Shown one piece after another: positions 9,880 through 58,910 of a stretch of 64,000 nucleotides of DNA. The position numbers and the translations under genes were made by a program. Under the pieces are notes generated by a model. That model was not told where the DNA came from. It saw only the letters and a program-made list of their open reading frames with translations, and did not search any database. The stretch lies in NCBI GenBank assembly GCA_964016885.1, contig OZ024746.1, positions 84,382,001 to 84,446,000 on the forward strand. Reading direction: 5' to 3'. The first letter of the stretch is position 1; each line of letters starts with the position of its first letter. This DNA is from Eledone cirrhosa. Taxonomy: Eukaryota.

Positions 9880-9931
9880 CCTAGGCGAGTTGGGCTACAT
9901 GAAATAAGTCAATGCGGATAAACAAACATAC

Positions 9932-10472
9932 CTTTTAAACTCTTTCTATTAACATCAGCTCCTAATTTCAGTAAATATTCGGCAATATCTTTATGGCCTT
10001 TATAGCATGAGATCATGAGACAGGTATGGCCATGGCGATTAGCTATTTCTATATCGGCTTTATTGGCAACAAGATATTTCACAATTTCACTATGTCCATC
10101 GAAACAAGCTGCACGAAGAGGTGTGGAATTGGTAAAAGTTGTTTGATTTACTCCTGCACCTTTCTGAATGAGATACTGAACGATATCCAAGTGTCCAGCA
10201 GCCGCTGCACACCATAAAGGAGGAGCTCCTTCTATGGTCTCCCCATCGAAAATAACAGATCCGACTTGTTCCATGTCGGCATTGCATTCGCCAATTAGGT
10301 ATTTGACGACATCCAAGTGTCCATTACGGCAGGCCACGATCAAGGGAGTAGCCCCATTTGTTTTGGCCTTGACAAGTTTACATCGTTCCTCCATAGTCTT
10401 GGGATCCAAATGGGATTTTAGACGGGACAGTCTCCCGTCACGGGCTGCGTTATAGATACTCTTGGTCTCCAT
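9932..10472 (-). CDS. fem-1: Protein fem-1 homolog (FEM1A/C-like ankyrin-repeat CUL2 substrate receptor), first coding exon; remaining exons lie left of the window
   Basis: METKSIYNAARDG...FDGETIEGAPPLWCAAAAGHL...NSTPLRAACFDGH...NRHGHTCLMISCYKGH...NRKSLKG; phase-1 donor AAAG|GTATGT at 9931, the same position as the vertebrate FEM1C intron; 5'UTR acceptor TTTTTTTCCCCAG at 10566. Confidence 0.95.
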
Positions 10473-11988
10473 ACCTCCCGACCCGAGATTTCTGAGCAGG
10501 TGTCATTGATTGTTTGTATTCATCGAAGATATGGTGAAGGTGATGGTGAAGCTGAATGTATACAGCTGGGGAAAAAAAGAGTATTTTTTTTTTTTTTAAT
10601 GGAAAGTCCTTATTTTTACCTCCTACACGACCAACTTAGGAAGTACTCAAACGGTGTCTTAGTTGTAGTGACAACAGAGTTGGTGCCTGCCTAGCGATCG
10701 AGGATCGATTACGATCTATGACAACGTCATTTAGGAACTGGAGTAAGGGCTTTTGATGTCAGGCTATCCTTTAGGGATTATCAAGCAAATTGTAGCGAGC
10801 AGCAGCCGATACAGAAAGACGATAACGATGGATAAATGGATGATAAGAGGGGAGCCACAATCGAAATAAATATGGCGTGCAGTTTACATCCGCTAGATGA
10901 GATCCAAACGGAGGCTGCTGCTGCTACTGTTGTTGTTGCTGCTGATGTTGCTACTGCTGGTGTTCATGTTGTTATTGTTGCTGACATTCGTGTTGTTGTT
11001 GTGGTTGTAAACACTGTTATTGAATAATGGTAACTGGAATGTTGGGGCGTGAAAACCTTGAGATGTTTTAATGTTGATTTCTGTTTTTTTTTTTTTGTTT
11101 TTGTTTTGCTTTCTATTGATTTTTTTGTGTAGCAGTTTAGTCCATGTCAGACCCTATCAAGCAGACACCTGTACTGAAAGGCGTTCTAGCTATCTTTTTT
11201 ATATATTTAGAGACCATACCATCCAATGCATGAGCGTCGGATAAAATGTCTACGTGATATATTTGTGGCTCTTTACATTCTGAGTTCAAATCCTGCAGAG
11301 GTCAACTTTAATTTTCATTAATCCAGGGTCGATAAACTATATTATTTGTCAAGTACTGTTCGATTTTTATTCTTGTAATGCATCCTAGGGTGTAATTATA
11401 GAAATATTTGGTTTCGTTGTTATTTTCGTAGAGAAATAAAGTATAGTAAATGGAGTAATGTTTGCTCTGAAAGTGGTTCAATATTTCTATACCCCAAGTG
11501 GATGAGAGCTTTCTTATGCATCCAAGTTCACAAATTATTACATTCCATTATTTTCATATTAACTATTTCATTTGTTCTTTTCGTAGAAGTTCGAATTCTT
11601 CCTTCTAGTACTGCCCGAAAATAAAAACATTACTAGACTTGTCTCTTGTTTTTCCCCAGACAATTTTGATCGAACAAATTTAGGAAGTGGGGGAGGAAAC
11701 TAATGTCATTACCTTATTTAAGACCATCATACATGATTTCAGGAAAATTTAGTTGCTATTTCTAGTAAATATGTCTGTTGCTATTATAATAAGTCGTTAG
11801 AGCTCAGAAGTTCCTCTCTACTAATTAAGGCTTTTATAATAAGCTGATTCAACAGCCGAATTTCGCCCTCCTACTCTTATCTTTTTAATAAAATTTTTTT
11901 TTTTTTTTTACCATTCTTTTCTCCCTTTGAAAGTATAGAACCAGTTTTAAACTATGATAGAGTACTCTATACTTGGGATAGTCGACTC

Positions 11989-33190: not shown

Positions 33191-34837
33191 TGCAAGAGTG
33201 CCATATATATATATATATACACACACACAATAGGCACAATTATATATATACACAATTCCTAGTTACTAAATGTCACTCACAAGGTATTGGTTAATCTGTG
33301 GCTATAGAAGATAAAAGGTGATAAAAGATGGGTTTGAACCTAGAACCAGGTAGTTGCAAGGTGAACTCCTTAATTACACAACCATGTCTTGAATTTGTAT
33401 TTTTAATTTATCCAAAATGTAATTCACATATCTAGTTTATAATACTATGTGAATCTTGTAACTGGAAAAGAAAATTGTTTAATTATGATAATGAAGATGA
33501 CAAATATATAACAAACAATATTTTTTGAAAAATTTATTTTATATATATATATATATATATACATACATACATATATATATGTACAACATAAACAATATCA
33601 TATAACAAAATTGTTATATTTTCAACAATGTTTTTTTTTTTCTCAAAACAGAAATATTCAGTAAATGATAACTATTATTATATGTCTTCCTCACAGGATG
33701 GAAAATTATATATAATTAAAGTCATCACTATTTTGGCTAGGCCACGTCAAACATTATACTTAAAATTCAGCATTAAATAACTCATTTATTTCTAACTAAA
33801 ATGATTTGTAATCTAAATTAATAGATGTGATACTAATTAAGTAAAAAATATTACATTATTATATTTATTTTATACTATTTAAAATCTGACATTATTTCAT
33901 TGACCTAAATGTAACTAATCTATTCAAAATAATTAAAACTCAAAGACTTTTATGATGGAAAACAAAGATAAATCAGGTAGTCGATGTTTCCATTTTAAAT
34001 ATGTAAACAATTTTTTTTGTTATTGTTTTTTTTTTATTATTTACAAAAGTTCTCCAAAAAACGGAGAAAATATTTAATAGAGATTTTTTTTTTCTTTGGA
34101 TGGAATCATTAACTTTATCTTTTCAAACCAAAGAAATATTTGTTGCCTTAATTACTCAATGTATATACAGTTTTTAATCAATAAATATAGGTTTTAGTTC
34201 AGATAACTGACATCACTTATTTGGAATGTCTTCTCTGGTAGAAAATATAATTAAAAAAACAACAAAAAACCTTTATATCTAAAATGCAGTTTAAAAAAGG
34301 GTACTTCCAAAAACTGGAAGGAATTAACAGATATACATTGATTATTGAGAATACAGTACAAGTTCCAAGTTTTCCTGGACTTTGGAGATGCACCAGAGCT
34401 ACTAAAAAGTCAATTAAATGAACTTAATAAAGAAGGAATTAAATTAATAAATTAAAATTTATTTGTAATCCCCCTAATTTTAAAGATTAAAATTTTAATA
34501 AAGTAGGTTTTTAATAGATATGTCTCATGTGTATGGTAAAATTGATTCAACAATCAAAAACATTATAAAAATGGCACCAGCAAAGAACTTGATACTAATG
34601 TTACTGCTAAAATAGATGTTCTTAGCAAACATACATCTAAAATGAAGACATAGTATAACATAAACCAGTGCTTGCTACCAATTTTATAAGGTGAGACAAT
34701 TTATTCATTATTTCTTATAAAGGGGGAGAGGACGTTTAAGTAAAAAAAACAAAAAAAACAAGCTGAAGCTCAAAAGATAAACAGTTTAACAGTCAGCAGT
34801 AAAAATCCATAACTAATATTCCATTATTGATCTTTAA

Positions 34838-35004
34838 CCCTTTGGCGTTTACCTTACATATACTATTGTATTTTCACAGTAAAAGCTTTATCTCACATAA
34901 TATTGAATCTATGAGATTTTGATATTTATTTTATGAATGGCCAGTTTGAATAGAGAGAGGTGAGAGAATTCTGGCTGCATACAGCCCATTTAAATGCTAT
35001 AGGG
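34838..35004. mobile_element. piggyBac-type MITE in the probable bZIP 3'UTR
   Basis: TTAA|CCCTTTGGCGTTTA ... TAAATGCTATAGGG|TTAA; same family as 58911-59130. Confidence 0.7.
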
Positions 35005-35767
35005 TTAAACTAATAGCTACAATGATAACATATCTAGATGTTCCATTTTTTCTTAAAATTCTCACAAGTTGTTAATAATATTTTTTATACACCCTTCTAA
35101 ACAATTATATCAGACTACATTTATAATTTTCAATATATATTTCTAATTGTATTGTTCTTCAAATATAAGGTCTTATTGCTAGATCGTATTTTATGTTGAA
35201 ATCAAAATAATAATGTTAAAACTTAGTGAAATAAATAATAACGTTTTCATCAACTATATAACTTTATAGGTCTATATAACAATAAAAGATACAATTATTC
35301 AAATTTTCCAGTCAATTATATAAATCTATATTTAAACCATTTAATACCATCTTTATTTTCTGCTTAAATTTTAGATTAATCATAATTTCTTAAAAATATG
35401 GTTACATTATTTACTAGAGTTAATATATATTTAAAGTTGATATAAAGCAAAAATGTTAAAAACAGAATTAAAAATAGATATAAAACTGATGTTACATGTA
35501 AACTATTTCAAGTAACACAAAAAATATTCAGATTTCATTCTTTGATGGTTTCAATTTTAGTATAATCACTAATATGTAATTATTAATAATATCAAAATAT
35601 GGAATTCTTACATAGCTATATGAAAGAAATAGTAACTTGTGATGTTTAATGTTTTCCTAAATAATGCATAATAACAATCAACAAGTTAGGTAATATTTCT
35701 AAAACAATCAAGTGTTTTAGTAGGCAAAATTTTTCGTCAATATTTTTTCCCATGTCCTTCCAGATGT

Positions 35768-36745
35768 TTACACCAATGCTTGCACTAATTCAGCTTTTGT
35801 CTTTTCTAAACAATTCTCAAGATCTTTGACTTTCAGCTTCAACGTTTCATTTCTTATACCAAGTTCTTCAAGTTCCATCAAATCGATTTGATTCTTTTTC
35901 TTGCGGTTCTCTCTTGACTTGCGTGATGCTATATTATTTCGCCTTCTCCTTTCATTATATTTCTCAATAGCAGAAATTTCCCCAGTTGTGAGAGATGAGA
36001 TCGTCATTTGTCTATTACCTGTAGATGTCTGGGCTGTACTAGAGATTTCAACTGCTACACGGAGCTTTTTATTAGTAGTATGATCATCAGTACAGTTCTG
36101 GCTTTCAATACTTGCTGATGATGATTCATCTATGTTATTGTCACCAGGTAACAGTACAGAAGGCAGAGTGTAAGTCTGGTTGATAAAGTCAACTTTACTC
36201 TCAGACATCCGTTTTAGATATGCGTTTTGTGACATTTGATGGGTTGAGGTAATTACCTCCTTACTATGTTCAGGTAAACATCCCAGAACTTTGCTTGTCT
36301 GGGGATAAATATTTAAATTCTGATCTACCATAGGATAAGTCTTTATTTTCTCATCTAGACCTGTATAAAGACTTTGCTTCTCATCTACTGTTGGGTAAAT
36401 TTCCAGCTTTTCCTCTGCATCAGAATAGATAATATGACCACCATTTGCGTCAGAGCAGACATCTTCTATGAGGTGATCAATTTTGGACTCATCTTTTAGT
36501 TTCTGGTCTGTCAGCAGTAAATTATCCAACTTCTGATCTGTCTCCTGGTAAAACTCCAGCTTTTGATCTGTTTTTGGCCAAACTTCTAGCATCTTACTTA
36601 CCTCAGAATAATACTCATACTGTGGCTCTGATTCCAAGGCAGAGTTTTGTGAATCAAATTTGTGTTGGAGATTTGAATCAAAAGAAGTTGCTGTAGAAAT
36701 TACATCTTGTGTAATATCGTCATCCAAATACTTTTGGGAAGAGTC
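35768..36745 (-). CDS. bZIP factor terminal coding exon
   Basis: Acceptor TTTCATAG|GAC at 36746; 325 codons ending in the bZIP domain. Confidence 0.92.
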   Translation of the reverse strand, partial: DSSQKYLDDDITQDVISTATSFDSNLQHKFDSQNSALESEPQYEYYSEVSKMLEVWPKTDQKLEFYQETDQKLDNLLLTDQKLKDESKIDHLIEDVCSDANGGHIIYSDAEEKLEIYPTVDEKQSLYTGLDEKIKTYPMVDQNLNIYPQTSKVLGCLPEHSKEVITSTHQMSQNAYLKRMSESKVDFINQTYTLPSVLLPGDNNIDESSSASIESQNCTDDHTTNKKLRVAVEISSTAQTSTGNRQMTISSLTTGEISAIEKYNERRRRNNIASRKSRENRKKKNQIDLMELEELGIRNETLKLKVKDLENCLEKTKAELVQALV

Positions 36746-39700
36746 CTATGAAATAACATTAAAAAAATTCATATTAGAAGATGAAAACGAATATAACAAA
36801 ATATTAAATAAACAAAATAAGCAAGGTGATTTTCATTATTTATTGAATCCCACAAAAAATAGAATCTCCAAACAAGACTTGGATTCAAGATTCTGCATTG
36901 CAGAATACCAGTCTAAAAAGGCAGTGTAGAGAGGACTCTTTAGTATCACCACATGAGACAACAACCTCTTTAGTTGCATTAGCATGATAAAATATACACA
37001 GTACATGCTGTAAGGTGGTTGGTTATATGAAGGTTTATGGCCTCCAAAATCGTAACAAAAAATAAGACCTACAAATGAGTTGAGTACTAGCAAGCTGCAT
37101 GACAGGCTGCCCATCTACAAGGGCATTAACTCTGATACAGAATTGGTGCAGAGTATAAAATACATTTTATTCTAGCTGCAGACACTCTTTCAATCCACAC
37201 TGAATCAACAAAGTTGTCCAGTACCTTTAATACTGTGCGTGGTAGTATGACATGGACTATGATGAGTGATGAGATGCTGTAAAACTCAACCAACAAATGC
37301 CAGCATGGAAAAATTGCCCATATGATGATAATGACAACCTATAACAGACACTTATAAAATGGAAATAGTGCCAGTGGAAGTATTGAGCATTTTTTACTTA
37401 GTGAAACCACCTGTAAAGTATTAAATATATGTGTGTGTGTGTGTATATATATATACACACAGATATATACATTAGGAAGGGCATCCAGCTGTAAAAATCA
37501 TAACATAACTGGAACATAAATGTAATGGAAACAAGATACAACCCCACCCTATCTAGGAGGACAGTAGCTCAGCTAATTAGGGGGTTTGTCTGTAACAACT
37601 CATCTAACTTATGCCAGCATGGAAAAATGGACATAAAATGCTGATGATGATTGATGATAATGATAATATATTACATACAATGTTATATAACAAACAAACA
37701 TAATAATGAACAGGTCTTTTTCTCTTTCAACAATCAAATTCAAAGCTCTTTCCTCATGTCTATTTATAACCTATTGAATGAAATTAGGTCACGAAGAAAA
37801 AAAAACTGAACTGAAGACATAAAAAATTTGTTTGTTTTGTTTTTCTGATGTCATAATTGAATATTTCTATCATTGCCACCAAGCCACCTATTTTAGTGGG
37901 AGAAAAGAGATTATTAAACTAGCTTACCAGTCCTTGACTTATTTTATCAAGTTTAAAATTATGAAAGCAAGATAGTCAAAGGTAAGATATGAACTCAGAA
38001 TTTCAGGATGTTATGTTAATACCCATCCTGCAAGCTATCTGTTCGTCTACCAAATCTGCCACCCAATGCCCTATTAACAGGGTAGTTATATCCTACACAA
38101 CAAATTTGATTGTGTATTTTTTCAGGAGGAAAAAAAATTAGTAAAATAGAAATTTAGGCTAATAACTTTTTAGCTTTGTTGCTTAGCCACAGGTCAGCCT
38201 TGGTTAAATAAACCAACAATTAAAGGTATTTCCAGTATGACCATCCATCCTTTCTCCTAAACATAGTAAACTCAAGACCACATTATCTAATGTCTTTTTC
38301 TTCTTTTGTGCTATTTTTAGCAGATCAAATTAATGTAGAGGTTCACTTTTTGGCTCAAATGTTTTTTTTTCCAATGTGTTTCACTACTTTTTATTTAAAG
38401 ACAGTAGATTATAATTTAAAGGATATTTGTCTGCTATTTTAATAACCCTAATTATGTTGATGATGACTTCTATTTTACTGAAGTAGATGAAACATTTTTT
38501 TCAGACACTAATGAAGAACAGATGTATAATGTTATACTTTTAGAGGATTGTGCTACCAATAAAAACACATGCACCAATCGAGTTTCACTTCAATTTATTA
38601 TTAGTTGAGTAACTAATCCATTTATTGGTTAGTCCATTTATTGGTTAGTTTAGTAACAATGACTACTCTTGTTACTCTGTCTCTCCTCTATGTTCTATTT
38701 TTCTCCATCTTGTGTTTTTGATGTGTGTGTGTTTCTGGTCTGTGCATGTATGTTTAAATGTGTGTTCAAATGTCTGTGTGTATGTATCCATGTGTGGCTA
38801 CTTCTACAAGCTATGTAATCTTCCTACAGTTATGAAAAATTCTATGATAATCTCCAAATGATTGACTATCATTGTTTTTTAACATCCCCTCATACATAAT
38901 GGCATGGGTTGAATAGGACTTTTAAAGGGAGTGTTTGGGGCTGGATACCTTTCCTGATAGTAACCCTTTTAGCTGCCTGTTGCAACATGTAGGGATATCT
39001 TTGAATAACTAATGTAGATTAAATCAATCACTAACCTCTAAACATATAAATTTTGAATAATTCTTTTTTACTTACAGCATCCAGTGGTAAAAGATTGGAA
39101 ATATCATTTGAAAGTAATAAGCTGTTCAGATCTGTAGGGAACAGATCTTCAACATCAAAGGATCCGAGTTGTGAATTTGGGCTTGAACCTGGTAGAGAGT
39201 AAAAATATATATTTTTTTAATAAATAGATAATAGATGCAGGTATGATTGCATAATTAAGAAATTTGCTTTGAACCACAGGGTTCAGGGTTTGATCTCTCT
39301 GTGAGGACAATCCTGAACCTTTGGCAAGTGTCTTCTATTATAACATAGAGTTGAGTGGAATTTACTAGGCAGAAACTGTACAGAAGCTTGTTACACACAC
39401 ACACACACATATATATATGCATGTATCAGTGTCTGTGTTAGTGTTTACACTAGTCTAAAAATCAGCATTGCTTCTGTCATGTTCCTTTATTTCCTGAAAG
39501 TTAGTGGTTCAATCAATAACATAAATACAAACTGAAATAAGTACTTGAGATGATCAGTCGATATGATTGGCTAAACCCTTGAGGAATGAGCTCCAACATG
39601 GCCACAGTCCAATGAGTAAAACCAGTAAAAGAAATAGCATATGAATTGTACCCTAATATTAGGTATCTGCATTTATTTCTCTCTTTCACACACACCCTCT

Positions 39701-39804
39701 CTTTTTCTAGAATATTAAAATGAAATTATGAGTGAGAGGAGTCAATCATCTCAAGCAAACTATAAAATTCATTTCCACTTACCACTGTTAAATAGGCCAT
39801 TCAT
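35768..39804 (-). CDS. C/EBP/PAR-related bZIP transcription factor (Xrp1/CHOP-like architecture), 3 coding exons, 370 aa
   Basis: Exons 39783-39804 (MNGLFNSG), 39076-39188 (SSPNSQLGSFDVEDLFP...PLDA) and 35768-36745; GTAAGT donors, phases match; basic region EKYNERRRRNNIASRKSRENRK followed by leucine heptads. Confidence 0.85.
39076..39188 (-). CDS. bZIP factor internal exon (acidic/hydrophobic, activation-domain-like)
   Basis: CTACCAG acceptor, GTAAGT donor, 113 nt, open in the required phase 1 to phase 0. Confidence 0.8.
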
Positions 39805-39961
39805 CTTCAATACCAAACGTGGTTAAATAAGATGTGTCAGTCACTGGTGTTTTAACTGTATGGGGAACATCAAAAATCTGGAATATATCCTCAACAACAT
39901 CCATTTGAAGATATGTGGACTGGTCTTGACATCCAGGGTGAGTGGTATCTTGTGATTGCAT
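39788..39961 (-). promoter_or_regulatory. 57-codon upstream ORF overlapping the bZIP start codon out of frame
   Basis: MQSQDTTHPGCQDQSTYLQMDVVEDIFQIFDVPHTVKTPVTDTSYLTTFGIEDEWPI*; stop at 39790-39788 lies downstream of the main ATG at 39804; host exon 39783-40198. Confidence 0.7.
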
Positions 39962-41461
39962 GATTAAGTTGTTAATTAAGTGAGTGTCTTCAATAGCAAA
40001 AATGTTTACTGGCAGTAACTGTCTTACTTGCTTTCTTTCCGTTTCACCTTTTTTCCTTTCTTTCTGAAGGGAGTTGATCAGACTGTTGTATATGTTGATT
40101 AACTGAAATTAGTTAAACTGATCTAGAAAGACAGCCTTCTGTTGCCTTCAATGAGGCTTGACACAAGTGCCCAGCACAACACTTGTACTCCCCCAGCCCT
40201 ATGAAAAAAAATAAAGAAAAATTAATAAAATAGGTAAAGAAAATATTACAATAATGTTTAAATGATTGATTCTTAAACATTTTTTTTTTATTTTGGCAAG
40301 GCTCATAAGAAACTGTTATACATTAGTGCATGGAACTGTGTCAGTGACCAAGTTGTAGAGAGTGCAACAGAAATTTTGGCACTAGGAAATAAATGTTATT
40401 AAAGTTAACAGTTTTCGTCCAGTACTTGCTTTAGTTTGACACATGATTTTAGATCAAGTCATTCTCCAAGCAAGCATGACTCTGAAACTTTAATATACAT
40501 TCGTAAATAACCATCAATTTGTTATTATTTAGCCTCAGACCAGCTCATGATCGAGCCAACCTATGATCAAATGTGTTCAGGGTGCCATCATCTAGTCATT
40601 TTTATTTTTAGACATAGTATATTTAAGACTATATCATCTTGGATACATATGTCTCCTTTTTAAAACGGTTGGCTATGATATGAAGAAGATATGACTGCTA
40701 TTTCATCAAGTTGAATGATCCAAAATAGGCTTCTTTCTTTGCTCATAATAATCTATTTCTTTTGACTATGTACAATGGTCTTACGATTAACGGAATGAGG
40801 ATTAAAATTTAACCCTAAACTCAATGATGAAAACTGGTTCTAGGAACTAAGTGTACATTATGTCAGTGAAGCTGAAGTTAGAAAGGATGTATAGACGCTA
40901 CATGTCCCCTTCCTCCAGAAGAAACTAAAATGTAAAGGAATGCTGTCCTCCTTGGGTACTTCCCCCTATTTCCACCCCAAGCCCGTCACCAGGTTTGGGT
41001 GTTCAGTCGGACTTTAGAGCATTCTGGGTAGGCAGGTGGGCACTCTAATTTACAGTAATTCTAAGGCGGATTCTTGGAATAAACATATCACTGTCACTTT
41101 TTCTAAATCTGAGGGTACACCATTTAAAAGTGTGTGTGTGGGGGGGGGGGGGGGGAGCGTAATCGATTTCCCCACATCACTTCCATCACATGCCTCACCC
41201 CGGCGACGGCCCCGCCTAATCGAATCCTTAACCAATAATAGATATCATAATTTATGTTAAATATTACTGCTTGTGTAAAATCCCAAATTATTTATTTTGA
41301 AAAAAATTGTTTCAAATTGTCAAATCCGAGATTCCCCATAGATCTGTTTAAATCAAATTGGGGGATAAACATAAATGCCTTGCAACTTGATGTTCTAGAA
41401 ATAACAACGAAATTACTAACATTGTTGATTTCTTAGAAATACAGTATAAGATATGGTAAAT

Positions 41462-42155
41462 TTATAGAAAGACACCTCCACCGATTTCAGTGAGAAATAA
41501 TTTTATTATTATTATTATTATTTTTCCGTATTAACTTTGCCTTTCGTCCTTACGGGGTCGATAAAATGAAGTACCAGTAATGTACTGGGATAATTGCTGG
41601 CTTTGTGCCAAATGTAGAAACAATTATTATTTTTCCGTATTTTTTTACCTCATAATATGATACAACAGACTTTTGCCCCAAAAAAGAGAGGACCCTCGAA
41701 CTTTTCAGAACACTCGCCTCCGAGTTTTTTTCCCCTCCGTTTTCCCGTGTGCTACCAACTAATGTGAATTCCGAACGTGATGCAAAGGACTTTTTCCCCA
41801 GAAAACGGAGGGGCGGAGGAGAGCCTCGGACCTCCCCCACCCACCACCGGAGTTTTCTTTACCCCCAGTTTTCTAACTCCTGGGGAGGGGTGCGTGAAAA
41901 TGCCAAGGGTCTCTCTCCCTCCGTTTACAAAAGAAAAAGTCCTTTGCAGCATGTTCGGAGGGAAGATTAGCTAGTAGCACACAAAAAAAAAAAAAAAATA
42001 AATAATAGTAAAGAAAACTCGAGAGGACGAGGGTGAAAAGTCCAGGGTCCCCCCTCCCTTTTTCTTAGAATCATATTATGAGGTAAGTTTAATTGGTAGC
42101 ACAAAAAAAAAAAATTATTTTCCCACAGAAAATCGGTGGAGGTGTCTTTCTATAA
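41462..42155. mobile_element. Fold-back/MITE-like DNA element with nested SINE
   Basis: Perfect 26-bp TIR TTATAGAAAGACACCTCCACCGATTT; internal inverted blocks TTACCTCATAATATGAT and GTGCTACCAA; SINE piece at about 41531-41628. Confidence 0.7.
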
Positions 42156-42211
42156 TAATACAAAAGATTTATTGGAGTAGTTAAGTTGTAACATTAATGC
42201 GTTGTAGCATT

Positions 42212-43598
42212 ATTACGTCAAATAGCTCTAGTCAAAATTCGAAATCAGAAACCGGGTTGTCAACACATGCGGTACGTTGATAGTGTATTCCTTTCGTAAT
42301 CTACAAACCACGCTGCTTTCTGAAGTGACGTAATAAAAAAAAGTAGGGCAGCGTAGTTGGTACAAAAGCACTAATAAATAGACCAGACTAGATATGTTAT
42401 GCTGTCTAATTCGATAATTCAGAGTTGGAATTCAAGTGTGCTTGACTTCGTCGAACATCCATAGGGCAGCGATAGTAGTAAATATCAGAAATATCAACAA
42501 AATTCATTCCCCGAACTAAACACATTCTCTCCCTCTCTCTATATGAACATCGGCATTATTATGACGAAACGAGCAAATTGTTGCATGAGAATGTATGTAT
42601 GATCGATATAATCGATATCAGAAGTACGTATTTATCGATGAAAGGCCAACTCGACCCTGGTGGAATATGAACCCAAAATATAACAGAAGTAGAGAAGGAG
42701 AGATATTTTATAGAACATTATTAAATAAATATTGATATGTAGTATCTACGTTAAAATGAATTAGAAAAAAAAAATTCTCATGCAAAGTAGATTACAAGGT
42801 GTGCGTGGATATAGACTCACACATATACATATATAGATATATAGAGAGAGATAATATATATATATATATATATATGGGGTTTGTAATGTGTACCTCCCAA
42901 ACATAATGCTAAACAGTCATTATAAATATTATTATGATCATCTGTGTTGGACGCACACATTTCAAAATTTCCCAATGCTTCCTAAGTCTACCGCTTCGTT
43001 TATATATATATATATGAAAATTAACAGAAGACAAGACAACGAACAAGGCAAAACGAATATCCCACTACTAAAATATGCACTTGAACTTGTCATTCAGAAA
43101 TGACAATTTAGAATTATTTTTTCAAGCAGGTAGGAGGGAAGGGCGAGGTGGCATTTTTTTTTTTCTCTCTTTGATTACTGAGATTCCTAGCAATAATTAA
43201 TTGTATTATTTGTGTTTATATTTTCATTCTGAAAGAATTATAAACAATTTGTAACGTTATTCATACAACTGTGAATAAAATATATAGATGACGTTTTAAA
43301 AAAAATTAATACAGATGACAGTCATGCTAACAAAAAAAGAGAAGAAAATACAAATTAAATAACAGAATTTTTTTTTTTTTCTTCATGTTAAGAGTTTAGG
43401 GACGTGTCATTGATAAATATTGCCAAAAATACTAATAGAATTTGATCGAAAGCCAAAAATAATAAAGAAAATTATGAAAAGCGTGGGGGAGAAATTATAA
43501 CATGTGTTACCTCTTGTCAGTCCTTATACGTCACTGGCTATATAACAACACCAACACGGATATGGTGCAATCAAAAGTTATTTTTAGTTTTGACGTCA
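42212..43598. promoter_or_regulatory. Cluster of CRE / C/EBP-ATF-like sites upstream of the bZIP gene
   Basis: ATTACGTCA 42212, TTTCGTAAT 42292, TGACGTAAT 42326, TACGTCA near 43527, TGGTGCAAT 43563, TGACGTCA 43591. Confidence 0.4.
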
Positions 43599-55306: not shown

Positions 55307-55726
55307 CACATATATATACATCTATATATACATATATATACATATACATATATATATACATATACATATATATATATACATATATGCATATATATATATA
55401 TATATATACATATATATAAACACACACACACTCATATATATATATATATATATACATATATATAACATATACAATCTTTTTTTTTCTGTTACGAGTTTCA
55501 GTAAATTGATTGCAGCCATATTAGTTTATAGTTGATCATATATTGATCCCCACGGTGTATTTCCTTGATTTCTATTTATCGAATAACTTGTCAACTTGTA
55601 TGTCGATGTTAAAAGGCAACTTAGCCTTTGGATATAGACATGTAAGTTGACACACCATTTTACACCAGCATACGCAAATATAGATACACATACATATATA
55701 TGAATTATGTATCTCTATCTATCTAT

Positions 55727-55765
<39 letters not shown>

Positions 55766-56463
55766 TCATAGAACCAACAACAAATTCGTCCATCCCCTTA
55801 TCGCTAGTCTGTATTACATTAAGATGCTGCCTGGTGAAGTTGCGTTGGTGGTTGCGTGATGACAGCATTACATAATTATTAACAGAAACATTATGAATAA
55901 AAGGAGTTGTGAATATTTACATCTGACAATTATCATTATTGTGTGCGTGTATATATATATATATATCTATATATATACATACACATACACATAACACACA
56001 CACATATATATATGTTTGTGGGTGTATATATATATATATATATACACATACACATAACACACATATATATATGTTTGTGTGTGTATATATATATATATGT
56101 GTTTGTGTGTATATATATCTATATATATCTATATATATACATACACATACACATAACACACACACATATATATATGTTTGTGGGTGTATATATATATATA
56201 TATATATACACATACACATAACACACACACATATATATATGTGTTTGTGTGTGTATATATATATATATATATGTGTGTTTGTGTGTATATATATATATAT
56301 ACACATAACACATACACATATATATATATGTGTTTGTGTGTGTATATATATATATATCATTATCATAGCTATTTAACATCTATTTTCCATATGCATAAAA
56401 TCCATGTGAACTGACCCTAAAAATGTAGATATACAAGAATATTTTTTTTGTTTTAAACCTTAC

Positions 56464-56579
56464 CTTTTCTTACATTACAATTCTGCAGATTGATAACTGG
56501 TACCTGGTGTAGAAACATTCTTCCTGTAAGTGACTCTACCGGTGGCAAAACGGTTGACTGCTGCTGATGTTGTTGCTGA

Positions 56580-56615
<36 letters not shown>

Positions 56616-57435
56616 ATCATTTGGTGTTGTTGCTCTTCTAGTTGTGGTTTTTGAGTCATTATCATGTTATCAGTTTCATCGTCAAGAATTTTACCATTCA
56701 GATCAATTGTTATTGTTCCTTTAGCATCAGGGAGTGTGCTTTCACAACTAATGACCGAATTCACAACATCGTTTTGGTTTATTTTTGTTACCGATGCCAG
56801 CATGTCATACTGTGATGCACAGTTATTCTGTAGATCAACTTCTTCTTCATTAAAAGATGAAAATGGTTCAGCTTTTATCTCAACATCATAGTTTAAATTC
56901 ATTTCTTCCTCCAAATTCATGCAGTCTTTTTCCATATTTGCCTTCTGAAAATTATTCACTGATGATGAATTCAGACTGTCAGTGGAATGAATTTCAATCC
57001 TGTCAATTGTCCTTTGTGGATTTTCTTCGGTTGTTATTGCATGATGTAGAGGAATTGTCATGTTAGGAGAAATTTCATTTGCATTTCTATAACTGTCTTG
57101 TCTTTTGGGTAAGCTGAGAAGAGATGAAGAAACTGAAGGAGATGTTGATGGAAATTCTTGAATTTGGATATCAGGTGATGATAAGCATGATGCCAAAGAT
57201 GAGGTTTTTCTACTAAAATTGTTATTAATTGGATTGGGCAAAAAATTTATCTGGGGTTGGTTATTATGTTGTTTTGAAGAGATTTCACTAGAGAACAGAG
57301 CCGATTGATTCAAAGCCTGAAAAGCATTATCTTCATCCTTATTTTCATTGCTCACATGAGTCAGTTTTGGTATTCTTGTAGTTTGAGAGCAAATATTATC
57401 TGAGAGCCATCGTGGAGAAGAGATGCCAGTCTGAT
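56464..57435 (-). CDS. C2H2 zinc-finger gene, common internal exon (324 codons, S/N-rich, IKAE SUMO-type motif, polyQ)
   Basis: 972 nt open; acceptor TTTTATTTTAG at 57436; phase-1 donor AAAG|GTAAGG at 56463 fits both zinc-finger exons; N-terminal exons not identified in the window. Confidence 0.85.
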
Positions 57436-57665
57436 CTAAAATAAAATAGACACACATCATCAGCATCATCATCATCATCATCACACACACACACGCACAT
57501 ATATATATGGAGAGAGAGAGAGAGAGAGAGATAATCCTGATGTGACATCAAGCAGTTTTGGCTAGTGTGTTTTTGCTGTCACAGTCTAGATTATACCCAC
57601 TCTGCATCTCCCAATGCATTGAGTACTCACATGATTTGTGGTCTCTTCTGTCTCAGCACCACAGA

Positions 57666-57723
<58 letters not shown>

Positions 57724-58910
57724 ACATACACACATATAATAAATCAACTCTAGTGGGTACTGTTTTCTTGTTTGTAACTTGAAAATTTCTCTCAACTCTT
57801 TATTTGGCATGGTTTCTATGGCTAGGTGCCCGTCTTTCCTAATGCATATGTTTAAACCCTTTGATCTTGAATTGCCTGAAACCACCCCTGGTTCTGCAAT
57901 TTGAAACAACCACCACCACTACCACCATCACCTTCACCACCGTTTAAAGTCTATTTTCCATACTTGCATAGGTTAGACAACTGGCACATACTGAGGTCTG
58001 ACCAGTCAGGTGACTAGGTCCTGCTTGTACGTTTTGTTTTTGTTTGGTTTCAATGGCTGGATGCCTTTCTTAATGCCAATAAACTTTATAGCATGTACTG
58101 GGAACATGTTTTCTATGGCTGGATGCCTTTCCTAGCACCAATCAATTTACAGTGTGTACTGGCAGCATTTTAACATGACACCGGCATTACCACTTTTATA
58201 GGTTGAACTGGGTGCTTTTAGTCATGGCATCATCACTACCACATTACAGTATGGACTCAGTATTTTTGTCATAGAACCAGCAATATCTCAGCAAGCATTA
58301 GTGGGAGTAGGGGCTGTGGAACAGGTGTTGCACTGCAGGAGGCAGAGGGTCATGGTGTTGGCCTTGAAGCAAGTGGATGGTGTCTGACATATTGTAGGGT
58401 GTGCCTGGTTTGCCTTAATGGCCTAAAAGGAGTCATTATATTTGGCTTAGAGCAAGTGGATGGGTGATGTCTGTCATTTTGAGGCATGCCAGACTTTCCT
58501 GGGTTGGGAAAGTATTGGGGAGTGCAAGGGTTCAGCAGGGGAGGGGAATCAGATAATGTTTATATTTATCTAAAATCCTTCAATCATAATATTATGTAAG
58601 AACCTTTGTTAAGTTATGTTCTGGATACCAGCTTAATAATGAGTAAGTTATATTACTAAATTGCTCAAAATTCTTGATTATTTGAAAACTTGCTAAGGAA
58701 AGAGTTAAAAAAATGTTTTATATGCAGATGGAGATACTGGAGATAAATCAATAAAGTTAGAGAAAACCAGCTATTGATATCCTGCTTCTGGTACTGTGTT
58801 GTGTCCATTGACAAGGGTTATCTCAAATTTTCCTATCTACATGATAACAAGAATTTATTAAGTATTAATAATAATGATTTCTAAATTAGAAATAAGGCCA
58901 GCAAATTTAA

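What the first reader, a model, noticed from the sequence alone, without database searches (positions are those of the whole stretch)
39783..40198. bZIP factor whose start codon is buried in an overlapping out-of-frame uORF: candidate integrated-stress-response switch or bicistronic microprotein
Seen: the leader exon (acceptor 40199, GTAAGT donor 39782) contains a 57-codon ATG ORF (39961-39788) that stops just downstream of the only ATG (39804) that splices in frame to the bZIP exons. The main frame has a TAA seven codons upstream, so 39804 cannot be extended. The uORF frame is open for 106 codons (40108-39791, with an in-frame CTG at 40081 and a possible TTTCAG acceptor at 40103), which is long for AT-rich UTR, and the peptide looks protein-like. 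Further short uORFs are nested in it. Known: ATF4 and Drosophila Xrp1 use overlapping uORFs, and DDIT3/CHOP an inhibitory uORF, so that the bZIP is made when eIF2alpha is phosphorylated. Inference: this is a mollusc Xrp1/CHOP-like stress effector and/or a transcript encoding a second small protein.
Basis: partly seen in the sequence, partly recalled or inferred. Interest (0 to 1): 0.75.

Follow-up and report, generated by a model that had tools for sequence, protein, structure and literature searches.

The report
Conserved overlapping uORF on octopus bZIP
An octopus transcription-factor gene has a short out-of-frame reading frame running across its start codon; that frame is also present in two related species and likely works as a brake that keeps the protein off until stress releases it.

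Summary
A 57-codon ATG ORF (39961-39788, minus strand) overlaps the bZIP start (39804) by 17 nt. A spliced contig from a second sample has both introns and matches without a gap, so this is not an assembly frameshift. The ORF is conserved. A relative's DNA keeps both ATGs, the frame and the stop (4 synonymous, 4 non-synonymous changes). A third sequence set holds an 80-aa homologue with the same last seven residues (42 of 57 identical), probably on the contig of the bZIP orthologue. Four full-length orthologues begin with the same six residues.

Not supported: the 106-codon/CTG extension, the 40103 acceptor, and membership of Xrp1 (no AT-hook), CHOP or ATF4 (a separate ATF4-like gene exists). 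The 40199 acceptor was not seen used; the one transcript contig runs through it to 41056.

Best reading: a repressive overlapping uORF of the ATF4/Xrp1/zip-2 type on an octopod C/EBP-PAR-like orphan bZIP, probably relieved by eIF2alpha phosphorylation. Translation and stress response were not tested. Rivals are a leader-isoform switch, a zip-2-type +1 frameshift in an 11-codon window, and neutral carry-over.

The parts
39788..39961 (-). Overlapping out-of-frame uORF, 57 codons plus TAA; uATG has A at -3; main frame is +1 relative to it
   Evidence: kept in organism B; homologue P0008, 42 of 57 identical
39783..39804 (-). First coding piece of the bZIP (main ATG 39804, 17-nt overlap with the uORF, donor at 39782)
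   Evidence: joint in X4; same first six residues in 4 of 4 full-length orthologues
39076..39188 (-). Second coding exon (113 nt)
   Evidence: both joints in the X4 contig; aligns to orthologues
35768..36745 (-). Last coding exon with the C-terminal bZIP domain
   Evidence: Pfam bZIP_2 32.5 bits over cut-off 22.3; best solved relatives C/EBP beta, alpha, NFIL3
39791..39822 (-). 11-codon window in which both the uORF frame and the main frame are open; the only place where a +1 shift would give a fusion protein; lies in the best-conserved end of the uORF
   Evidence: 18 of the last 20 residues identical to P0008
39841..39932 (-). Nested short uORFs (ATG 39932, 13 codons; 39900, 19; 39870, 9), weak contexts; in-frame second Met at 39904 is Thr in P0008
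39962..40198 (-). ATG-free leader segment below the candidate acceptor 40199; includes the open but non-conserved extension of the uORF frame (40108-39962)
   Evidence: 0 ATG in 237 nt; pN/pS 1.23; indels against P0008
40199..41056 (-). Segment read through by the one transcript contig: retained intron or long leader, with 21 ATGs
42054..42466 (.). Candidate promoter block: kept in organism B, low-depth X4 contig, the window's only two TTACGTCA sites (inferred role)

Best explanation
The gene encodes an octopod bZIP transcription factor whose start codon lies inside a conserved out-of-frame uORF, which likely captures scanning ribosomes and keeps the bZIP off until stress, probably eIF2alpha phosphorylation, lets ribosomes bypass it. 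Shown: the geometry (uATG 157 nt upstream, stop 14 nt past the main ATG, main frame +1), both introns, absence of an indel, and retention in organism B and in P0008. Inferred step 1: ribosomes starting at 39961 (A at -3) finish beyond 39804 and cannot start the bZIP. Inferred step 2: the stop lies 118 nt before the last exon junction, so the resting mRNA would also be an NMD target. Inferred step 3: when ternary complex is low, ribosomes pass 39961 (after a short uORF further upstream, or by leaky scanning) and start at 39804. Inferred step 4: the conserved C-terminal 20 residues may strengthen the block by slowing elongation or termination.
For: Frame, both ATGs and stop kept in organism B with no indel; 8 changes in 174 nt (4.6%) against 163 in 1619 (10.1%) in six other non-coding pieces, p=0.02; 4 synonymous and 4 non-synonymous, pN/pS 0.27, p=0.07. 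P0008 is the only hit among 1.84 billion representatives (E 7e-24), ends in the same seven residues, and sits on a 1705-nt contig like orthologue P0001. Simulated neutral survival of the frame is 0.17 to 0.0001 at tree lengths 0.2-0.3. Residues 2-6 of the bZIP, which carry the uORF's end and stop, are invariant in 5 of 5 sequences against 66 of 293 columns in the rest outside the bZIP. The main Met is at the same place in 4 of 4 full-length orthologues, so initiation there looks selected. The leader around the uATG is otherwise free of ATG. Overlapping uORFs repress Xrp1 (PMC13268129; bioRxiv 10.64898/2026.10.09.757274) and zip-2 (PMC11831180).
Against: No ribosome profiling, reporter or stress data. 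Only a small fraction of uORFs mediate ISR induction (PMC10998230). No short reinitiation uORF1 is present in 40198-39962, and the 5' end is unknown. pN/pS is not significant. The 15 codons upstream of the uATG are nearly as similar to P0008 (10 of 15) as the uORF, and the 147 nt upstream are as conserved in organism B (6 changes), so general leader constraint could explain part of the retention. All compared species are close octopods. That P0008 and P0001 share a contig is inferred from equal contig length. The one transcript contig carries 21 more ATGs upstream, which complicates a simple scanning model.
Confidence: 0.55

Rival explanations
1. The uORF represses, but relief comes from a change of mRNA isoform (intron retention at 40199, another first exon or start site), not from eIF2alpha.
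For: A strong-looking acceptor with an ATG-free segment below it is read through in the only transcript contig, which suggests two leader forms. Xrp1 is also switched by isoform choice (PMC13268129 Discussion; bioRxiv 10.64898/2026.10.09.757274 abstract).
Against: No second isoform was seen among the 4 X4 records laid. Splicing at 40199 leaves the uORF in place. No acceptor use between 39961 and 39804 was seen.
Confidence: 0.15
2. Ribosomes translating the uORF shift +1 into the bZIP frame when elongation is slowed, as proposed for C. elegans zip-2, giving a uORF-bZIP fusion of about 420 aa.
For: The main frame is +1 to the uORF, as in zip-2 (PMC11831180). The 11-codon window where both frames are open lies in the best-conserved part, and organism B's two changes there leave both frames open.
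Against: The window is 11 codons against 121 in zip-2, and a main-frame stop closes it just upstream. The main ATG is kept in every orthologue, whereas in zip-2 it is dispensable and poorly conserved. No fused orthologue among the 5 homologues of 178-569 aa or the representatives. The zip-2 model itself lacks detected fusion peptides. Octopus ribosomes are reported to be unusually accurate (PMC13321053, passages; frameshifting not mentioned).
Confidence: 0.1
3. The uORF has no role; it survives because the species are close and the leader exon is constrained for other reasons.
For: pN/pS p=0.07 only. uORF identity to P0008 is not above the bZIP's variable middle (p=0.28). Neutral survival is 0.04-0.40 at the A-B distance alone. 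uORF coding regions are mostly neutral genome-wide (PMC7889888, section 12).
Against: Overlapping uORFs are the more strongly purged class (PMC7889888, passages), yet this one persists in a good context inside an otherwise ATG-free stretch. Long uORFs are rarely kept. The bZIP N-terminus that encodes the uORF stop is invariant out to Argonauta.
Confidence: 0.12
4. The transcript is bicistronic: the 57-residue peptide has its own function in trans.
For: Peptide kept without gaps in three species; pN/pS 0.27.
Against: No Pfam family, no Atlas hit, no fold (pLDDT 55.7). 13 of the first 37 residues differ from P0008 and its N-terminus differs in length; constraint is confined to the end near the main start.
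Confidence: 0.08

Closest known systems
ATF4 (and ATF5) leader: short uORF1 plus overlapping inhibitory uORF2
   Same: bZIP gene; uORF of similar scale overlapping the main start out of frame (arrangement as described in PMC13268129 Discussion).
   Different: Not an ATF4: the genome has a separate gene whose only PDB match is ATF-4, and this domain matches C/EBP and NFIL3. Overlap only 17 nt. No uORF1 found in the ATG-free leader.
Drosophila Xrp1
   Same: Fast-evolving, lineage-restricted C/EBP-class bZIP with an inhibitory overlapping uORF whose peptide is conserved (PMC8514241, PMC6946401, passages).
   Different: No AT-hook. Xrp1 orthologues are reported only in Diptera. Xrp1 uORF2 is 288 aa and is part of the main ORF in other flies; no fused form was found here.
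C. elegans zip-2 oORF/mORF
   Same: bZIP behind a conserved overlapping ORF, main frame +1, uORF stop upstream of an exon junction (PMC11831180, parts 1-5 of 7).
   Different: Overlap 17 nt against 121 codons; main ATG conserved here, dispensable there.
DDIT3/CHOP inhibitory uORF
   Same: C/EBP-like bZIP with an inhibitory uORF in the leader (PMC10998230, passages).
   Different: The CHOP uORF is shorter and its basic region is broken by Pro/Gly (both recalled); here the basic region is canonical and the protein is 370 aa.
Conserved-peptide uORFs with stalling C-termini
   Same: Constraint concentrated in the last 20 residues (18 of 20 identical); C-terminal conservation is typical of regulatory CPuORFs (PMC7530721, passages).
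   Different: Conservation shown only among close octopods; sequence dependence untested.

Membership tests
Overlapping inhibitory uORF on a bZIP mRNA (ATF4/Xrp1/zip-2 type) | uATG upstream, out of frame, stop downstream of the main ATG, on the mRNA | tested here: met
Overlapping inhibitory uORF on a bZIP mRNA (ATF4/Xrp1/zip-2 type) | Arrangement conserved in relatives | tested here: met
   organism B; P0008 with P0001, same contig inferred
Overlapping inhibitory uORF on a bZIP mRNA (ATF4/Xrp1/zip-2 type) | uORF is translated and represses the main ORF | not testable with these tools
   needs ribosome profiling or a reporter
ATF4-type ISR switch | Short uORF1 upstream that allows delayed reinitiation | tested here: inconclusive
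   none in 40198-39962; 21 ATGs in 41056-40199 if that part is leader; 5' end unknown
ATF4-type ISR switch | Induction by eIF2alpha phosphorylation | not testable with these tools
   no stress data
ATF4 orthologue | bZIP domain closest to ATF4 | tested here: not met
   no ATF-4 among the 14 PDB matches; locus L018 matches ATF-4 instead
Xrp1 | AT-hook next to the bZIP (PMC6946401) | tested here: not met
   no GRP core (motif recalled) in the protein or in the 7 stored homologues
Xrp1 | N-terminal Xrp1-homology domain; orthology by tree | not testable with these tools
   no Xrp1 sequence was returned by any search
DDIT3/CHOP | Pro/Gly substitutions in the basic region (recalled) | tested here: not met
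   basic region has no Pro or Gly and aligns without gaps to C/EBP beta
C/EBP proper or PAR/NFIL3 | Supported grouping with the genome's C/EBP-like (L004, L006) or PAR-like (L002, L003, L005) domains | tested here: inconclusive
   tree of 17 rows has 0 of 14 strongly supported branches; C/EBP beta score 26.6 bits against 37.5 and 34.2 for L006 and L004
Conserved-peptide uORF | Ka/Ks significantly below 1 | tested here: inconclusive
   pN/pS 0.27, p=0.07, one species pair
zip-2-type +1 frameshift sensor | Long shared open overlap; main ATG dispensable | tested here: inconclusive
   +1 geometry met, but window of 11 codons and conserved main ATG; dispensability not testable

The most novel reading that the evidence does not exclude
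Octopods independently evolved a translation-stress sensor on an orphan bZIP: the conserved last residues of the uORF stall the ribosome over an 11-codon dual-open window, and the stalled ribosome either shifts +1 to make a uORF-bZIP fusion or restarts 14 nt back at the buried ATG. This would be the first zip-2-like switch outside nematodes in the papers found, in an animal reported to have unusually accurate ribosomes.
Probability: 0.12. Interest if true: 0.85.

Novelty: new member of a known kind. Interest (0 to 1): 0.52.

Why it matters
Vertebrates (CHOP, ATF5), flies (Xrp1) and nematodes (zip-2) each have a bZIP besides ATF4 that is held down by an inhibitory uORF, and whether these are equivalents is open (PMC8514241 Discussion). 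An octopod orphan bZIP with the same architecture would add a mollusc case and suggest repeated convergence on this switch. Its very short overlap and conserved uORF end make leaky scanning, delayed reinitiation, stalling and +1 frameshifting separable with a few reporter mutants. No paper on this gene or on a mollusc bZIP uORF turned up in searches.

Tried and rejected
Assembly frameshift: rejected; contigs of X1, X2 (one sample, possibly the assembly's source) and X4 (second sample, same study) match with 0 gaps, and organism B keeps the frame. Fused orthologue: none among 5 homologues of 178-569 aa or among representatives of any length; a 'longer' word search was not run. CTG/106-codon extension and acceptor 40103: not supported. 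The idea that P0008's first Met matches the in-frame ACG at 40042 held in only 1 of 4 gap settings, and a first attempt with a cost-only score gave uninformative alignments; it is left as a weak lead. Word-index search with the 57-aa peptide found no candidate; Atlas gave no usable hit for it and only generic bZIP clusters for the domain. Single-sequence fold was uninformative. The leader exon folds no better than shuffles (z 0.02). No paralogue of the uORF or of the domain in the own genome (1 match each). No RNA holder was listed by record; X4 is taken as RNA from its precise intron joints. X4 has no cover at 41140-41340, which proves nothing about the start site. RAD runs X6 and X7 did not cover the uORF core. 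A-to-I editing of the uATG or stop: no differences in the X4 contig, but contigs drop rare variants. The bZIP tree did not resolve the family. Earlier scan notes: 0 fits in 2 look-ups. The CHOP uORF paper PMC3064149 was not held, so CHOP details are recalled.

Full report
Observation. On the minus strand, 40198-39783 holds 7 ATGs. The one at 39961 opens 57 codons ending at TAA 39790-39788. The one at 39804 is the only one that splices into the bZIP, giving 370 aa. The overlap is 17 nt and the main frame is +1 to the uORF. A main-frame TAA at 39825 blocks extension and leaves 11 uORF codons (39822-39791) in which both frames are open. The last exon scores 32.5 bits on Pfam bZIP_2; the uORF frame matches no family. 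In 5000 dinucleotide shuffles of the leader, 36% had some overlapping ATG uORF, 1.8% one starting 52 or more codons upstream, and 0.3% a frame open for 101 codons. The arrangement is uncommon but, from one sequence, not decisive: the window holds 27 stop-free frames of 106 or more codons and 103 ATG ORFs of 57 or more.

Transcript and assembly. Eight runs were listed, none recorded as RNA; 6 were laid in two calls. One contig of X4 (second sample, same study) joins 39783/39188 and 39076/36745 with intron ends CT..AC, which X1, X2 and X5 do not. I take X4 as RNA for that reason. It has 0 differences and 0 gaps over the uORF, as do the X1 and X2 contigs, so the uORF is not a mis-assembled N-terminus. 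Read at face value the leader is at least 1252 nt with 26 upstream ATGs. The 858 nt above 40199 have intron-like ATG density (21, against 61 in 2924 nt of the two introns) while the 237 nt below have none (p=0.012). So 40199 is probably a real acceptor seen here in a retained form; a short first exon can be clipped by assemblers (recalled). The 5' end is unresolved.

Conservation, organism B. A DNA contig of X5 covers 39719-40210 with 27 differences, of which 26 are listed and 22 fall in the exon, and one 6-nt gap at 40181, outside the uORF frame. Both ATGs, the stop and all nested ATGs are kept. The uORF has 8 changes, 4 synonymous and 4 non-synonymous (pN/pS 0.27, p=0.07); the three changes in its last 15 codons are all synonymous. 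Its 4.6% divergence is below the 10.1% of six other non-coding pieces (p=0.02), but those include transposon-derived DNA, and the 147 nt just upstream are as conserved (6 changes) with pN/pS 1.23.

Conservation, third sequence set. A full HMMER scan with the 106-codon frame found 1 protein among 1.84 billion representatives: P0008, 80 aa, E 7e-24. It keeps the Met at 39961, aligns without gaps over 72 residues and ends in the same seven residues; 42 of 57 are identical. It comes from one 1705-nt contig, the same length as the contig of the bZIP orthologue P0001, so they are probably one transcript; this is inferred. Differences cluster at the front: 13 of the first 37 against 2 of the last 20 (p=0.059; against the bZIP's middle p=0.026, both post hoc). 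Overall the uORF is not better conserved than the bZIP's middle (15 of 57 against 81 of 237, p=0.28), and the 15 codons before the ATG differ at 5. P0008's first 8 residues match window DNA (score 9, 0 of 60 random heads as high) but through indels that shift the frame in 3 of 4 gap settings, so the upstream extension is not a conserved peptide. Simulated neutral survival of start and frame is 0.40-0.04 at tree length 0.1 and 0.17-0.0001 at 0.2-0.3, depending on the indel rate assumed.

The bZIP. Five homologues were found, three named from Octopus vulgaris/sinensis, O. bimaculoides and Argonauta hians, all uncharacterized, and two unnamed. Four are full length and begin with the same six residues; none carries uORF sequence. 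Residues 2-6, which encode the uORF's end and stop in the other frame, are invariant in 5 of 5 sequences, against 66 of 293 columns between them and the bZIP, where 1 of 289 five-column windows is invariant. This hints that the overlap reaches Argonauta, but no DNA was available. Solved relatives are C/EBP beta, alpha and NFIL3 (14 matches, best 26.6 bits). The genome holds 17 bZIP_2 matches, among them an ATF4-like gene, two closer C/EBP-like genes and PAR/NFIL3-like genes. The tree is unresolved (0 of 14 strong branches). There is no AT-hook core. The gene is best called an octopod C/EBP-PAR-like orphan.

Mechanism. Most likely the uATG, with A at -3 and no ATG for 237 nt before it, takes most scanning ribosomes past 39804. 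Termination 118 nt before the last junction would also expose the mRNA to NMD (50-55 nt rule, recalled). Relief through low ternary complex is inferred by analogy. In Xrp1 the overlapping uORF represses, and relief follows eIF2alpha phosphorylation or isoform change (PMC13268129 abstract and Discussion; PMC8514241 passages; bioRxiv 10.64898/2026.10.09.757274 abstract and section 9). In zip-2 a +1 frameshift under slow elongation is proposed, without detected fusion peptides (PMC11831180, parts 1-5 of 7). Here the kept main ATG and the short window favour initiation at 39804 over frameshifting. Only a small share of uORFs are ISR switches (PMC10998230 passages), and fewer than 1% encode conserved peptides (PMC7889888 section 12 and passages), so the ISR step and the peptide role stay uncertain. 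I put a conserved repressive uORF at about 0.8 and the full ISR reading at 0.55.

Novelty. The architecture is known; its presence on this gene was not found in print. Searches: gene and protein accessions, 0 papers; uORF with mollusc, bZIP and ATF4, 0; uORF with cephalopod, 7 papers, 6 listed, none on this by title or abstract start; a looser search, 15 of 1527 listed, none on this. These were read as listings only, except PMC7889888 and PMC13321053 (passages). PMC6946401 and PMC7530721 were read as passages. No supplements were read; the uORF table of PMC7889888 covers cephalopods and may list this uORF without comment. Verdict: real, conserved, new member of a known kind; interest 0.52.

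Noticed in passing
window 41462-42155: Perfect 26-nt terminal inverted repeats 642 nt apart with nested inner inverted repeats; the inner part has 96 further matches at 66-88% in the own genome, a lower bound that includes multiple pieces per copy. Looks like an old MITE just upstream of the gene, also present here in organism B.
   Followed up: partly
window 42213, 42333 and 43591: The window's only two TTACGTCA sites and its only TGACGTCA palindrome (bZIP-type sites, names recalled) lie upstream of the gene, the first two in a block kept in organism B. Possible ATF/CREB control or autoregulation; post hoc.
   Followed up: partly
L020/L021, G000:C1 exon starting at 361349033, minus: The ATF4-like gene has a frame open for 49 codons from the acceptor across its candidate start codons, main frame +1, plus a 13-codon uORF ending just before an ATG: probably the octopod ATF4 uORF2. 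Upstream exon not found.
   Followed up: partly
L003 and L011, G000:C21:3846008-3847675: One 692-aa open frame carries two bZIP domains about 500 residues apart, unusual for an NFIL3/PAR-like factor.
   Followed up: no
window 9912-10502, minus: Exon with four ankyrin repeats, a neighbouring gene.
   Followed up: no
window 56456-57547, minus: 364-codon stop-free frame with no Pfam match, among other long frames at 55400-57900.
   Followed up: no
window 34000-35767, minus: Long AT-rich 3' region covered by X4 contigs at depth about 230-240, with 9 ATTTA and 5 AATAAA motifs; may be an unstable 3' UTR, not tested against chance.
   Followed up: no
L021, G000:C1:361361090-361365107: Gag- and pol-like frames of an LTR retrotransposon (recognised by eye) about 12 kb upstream of the ATF4-like exon.
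   Followed up: no
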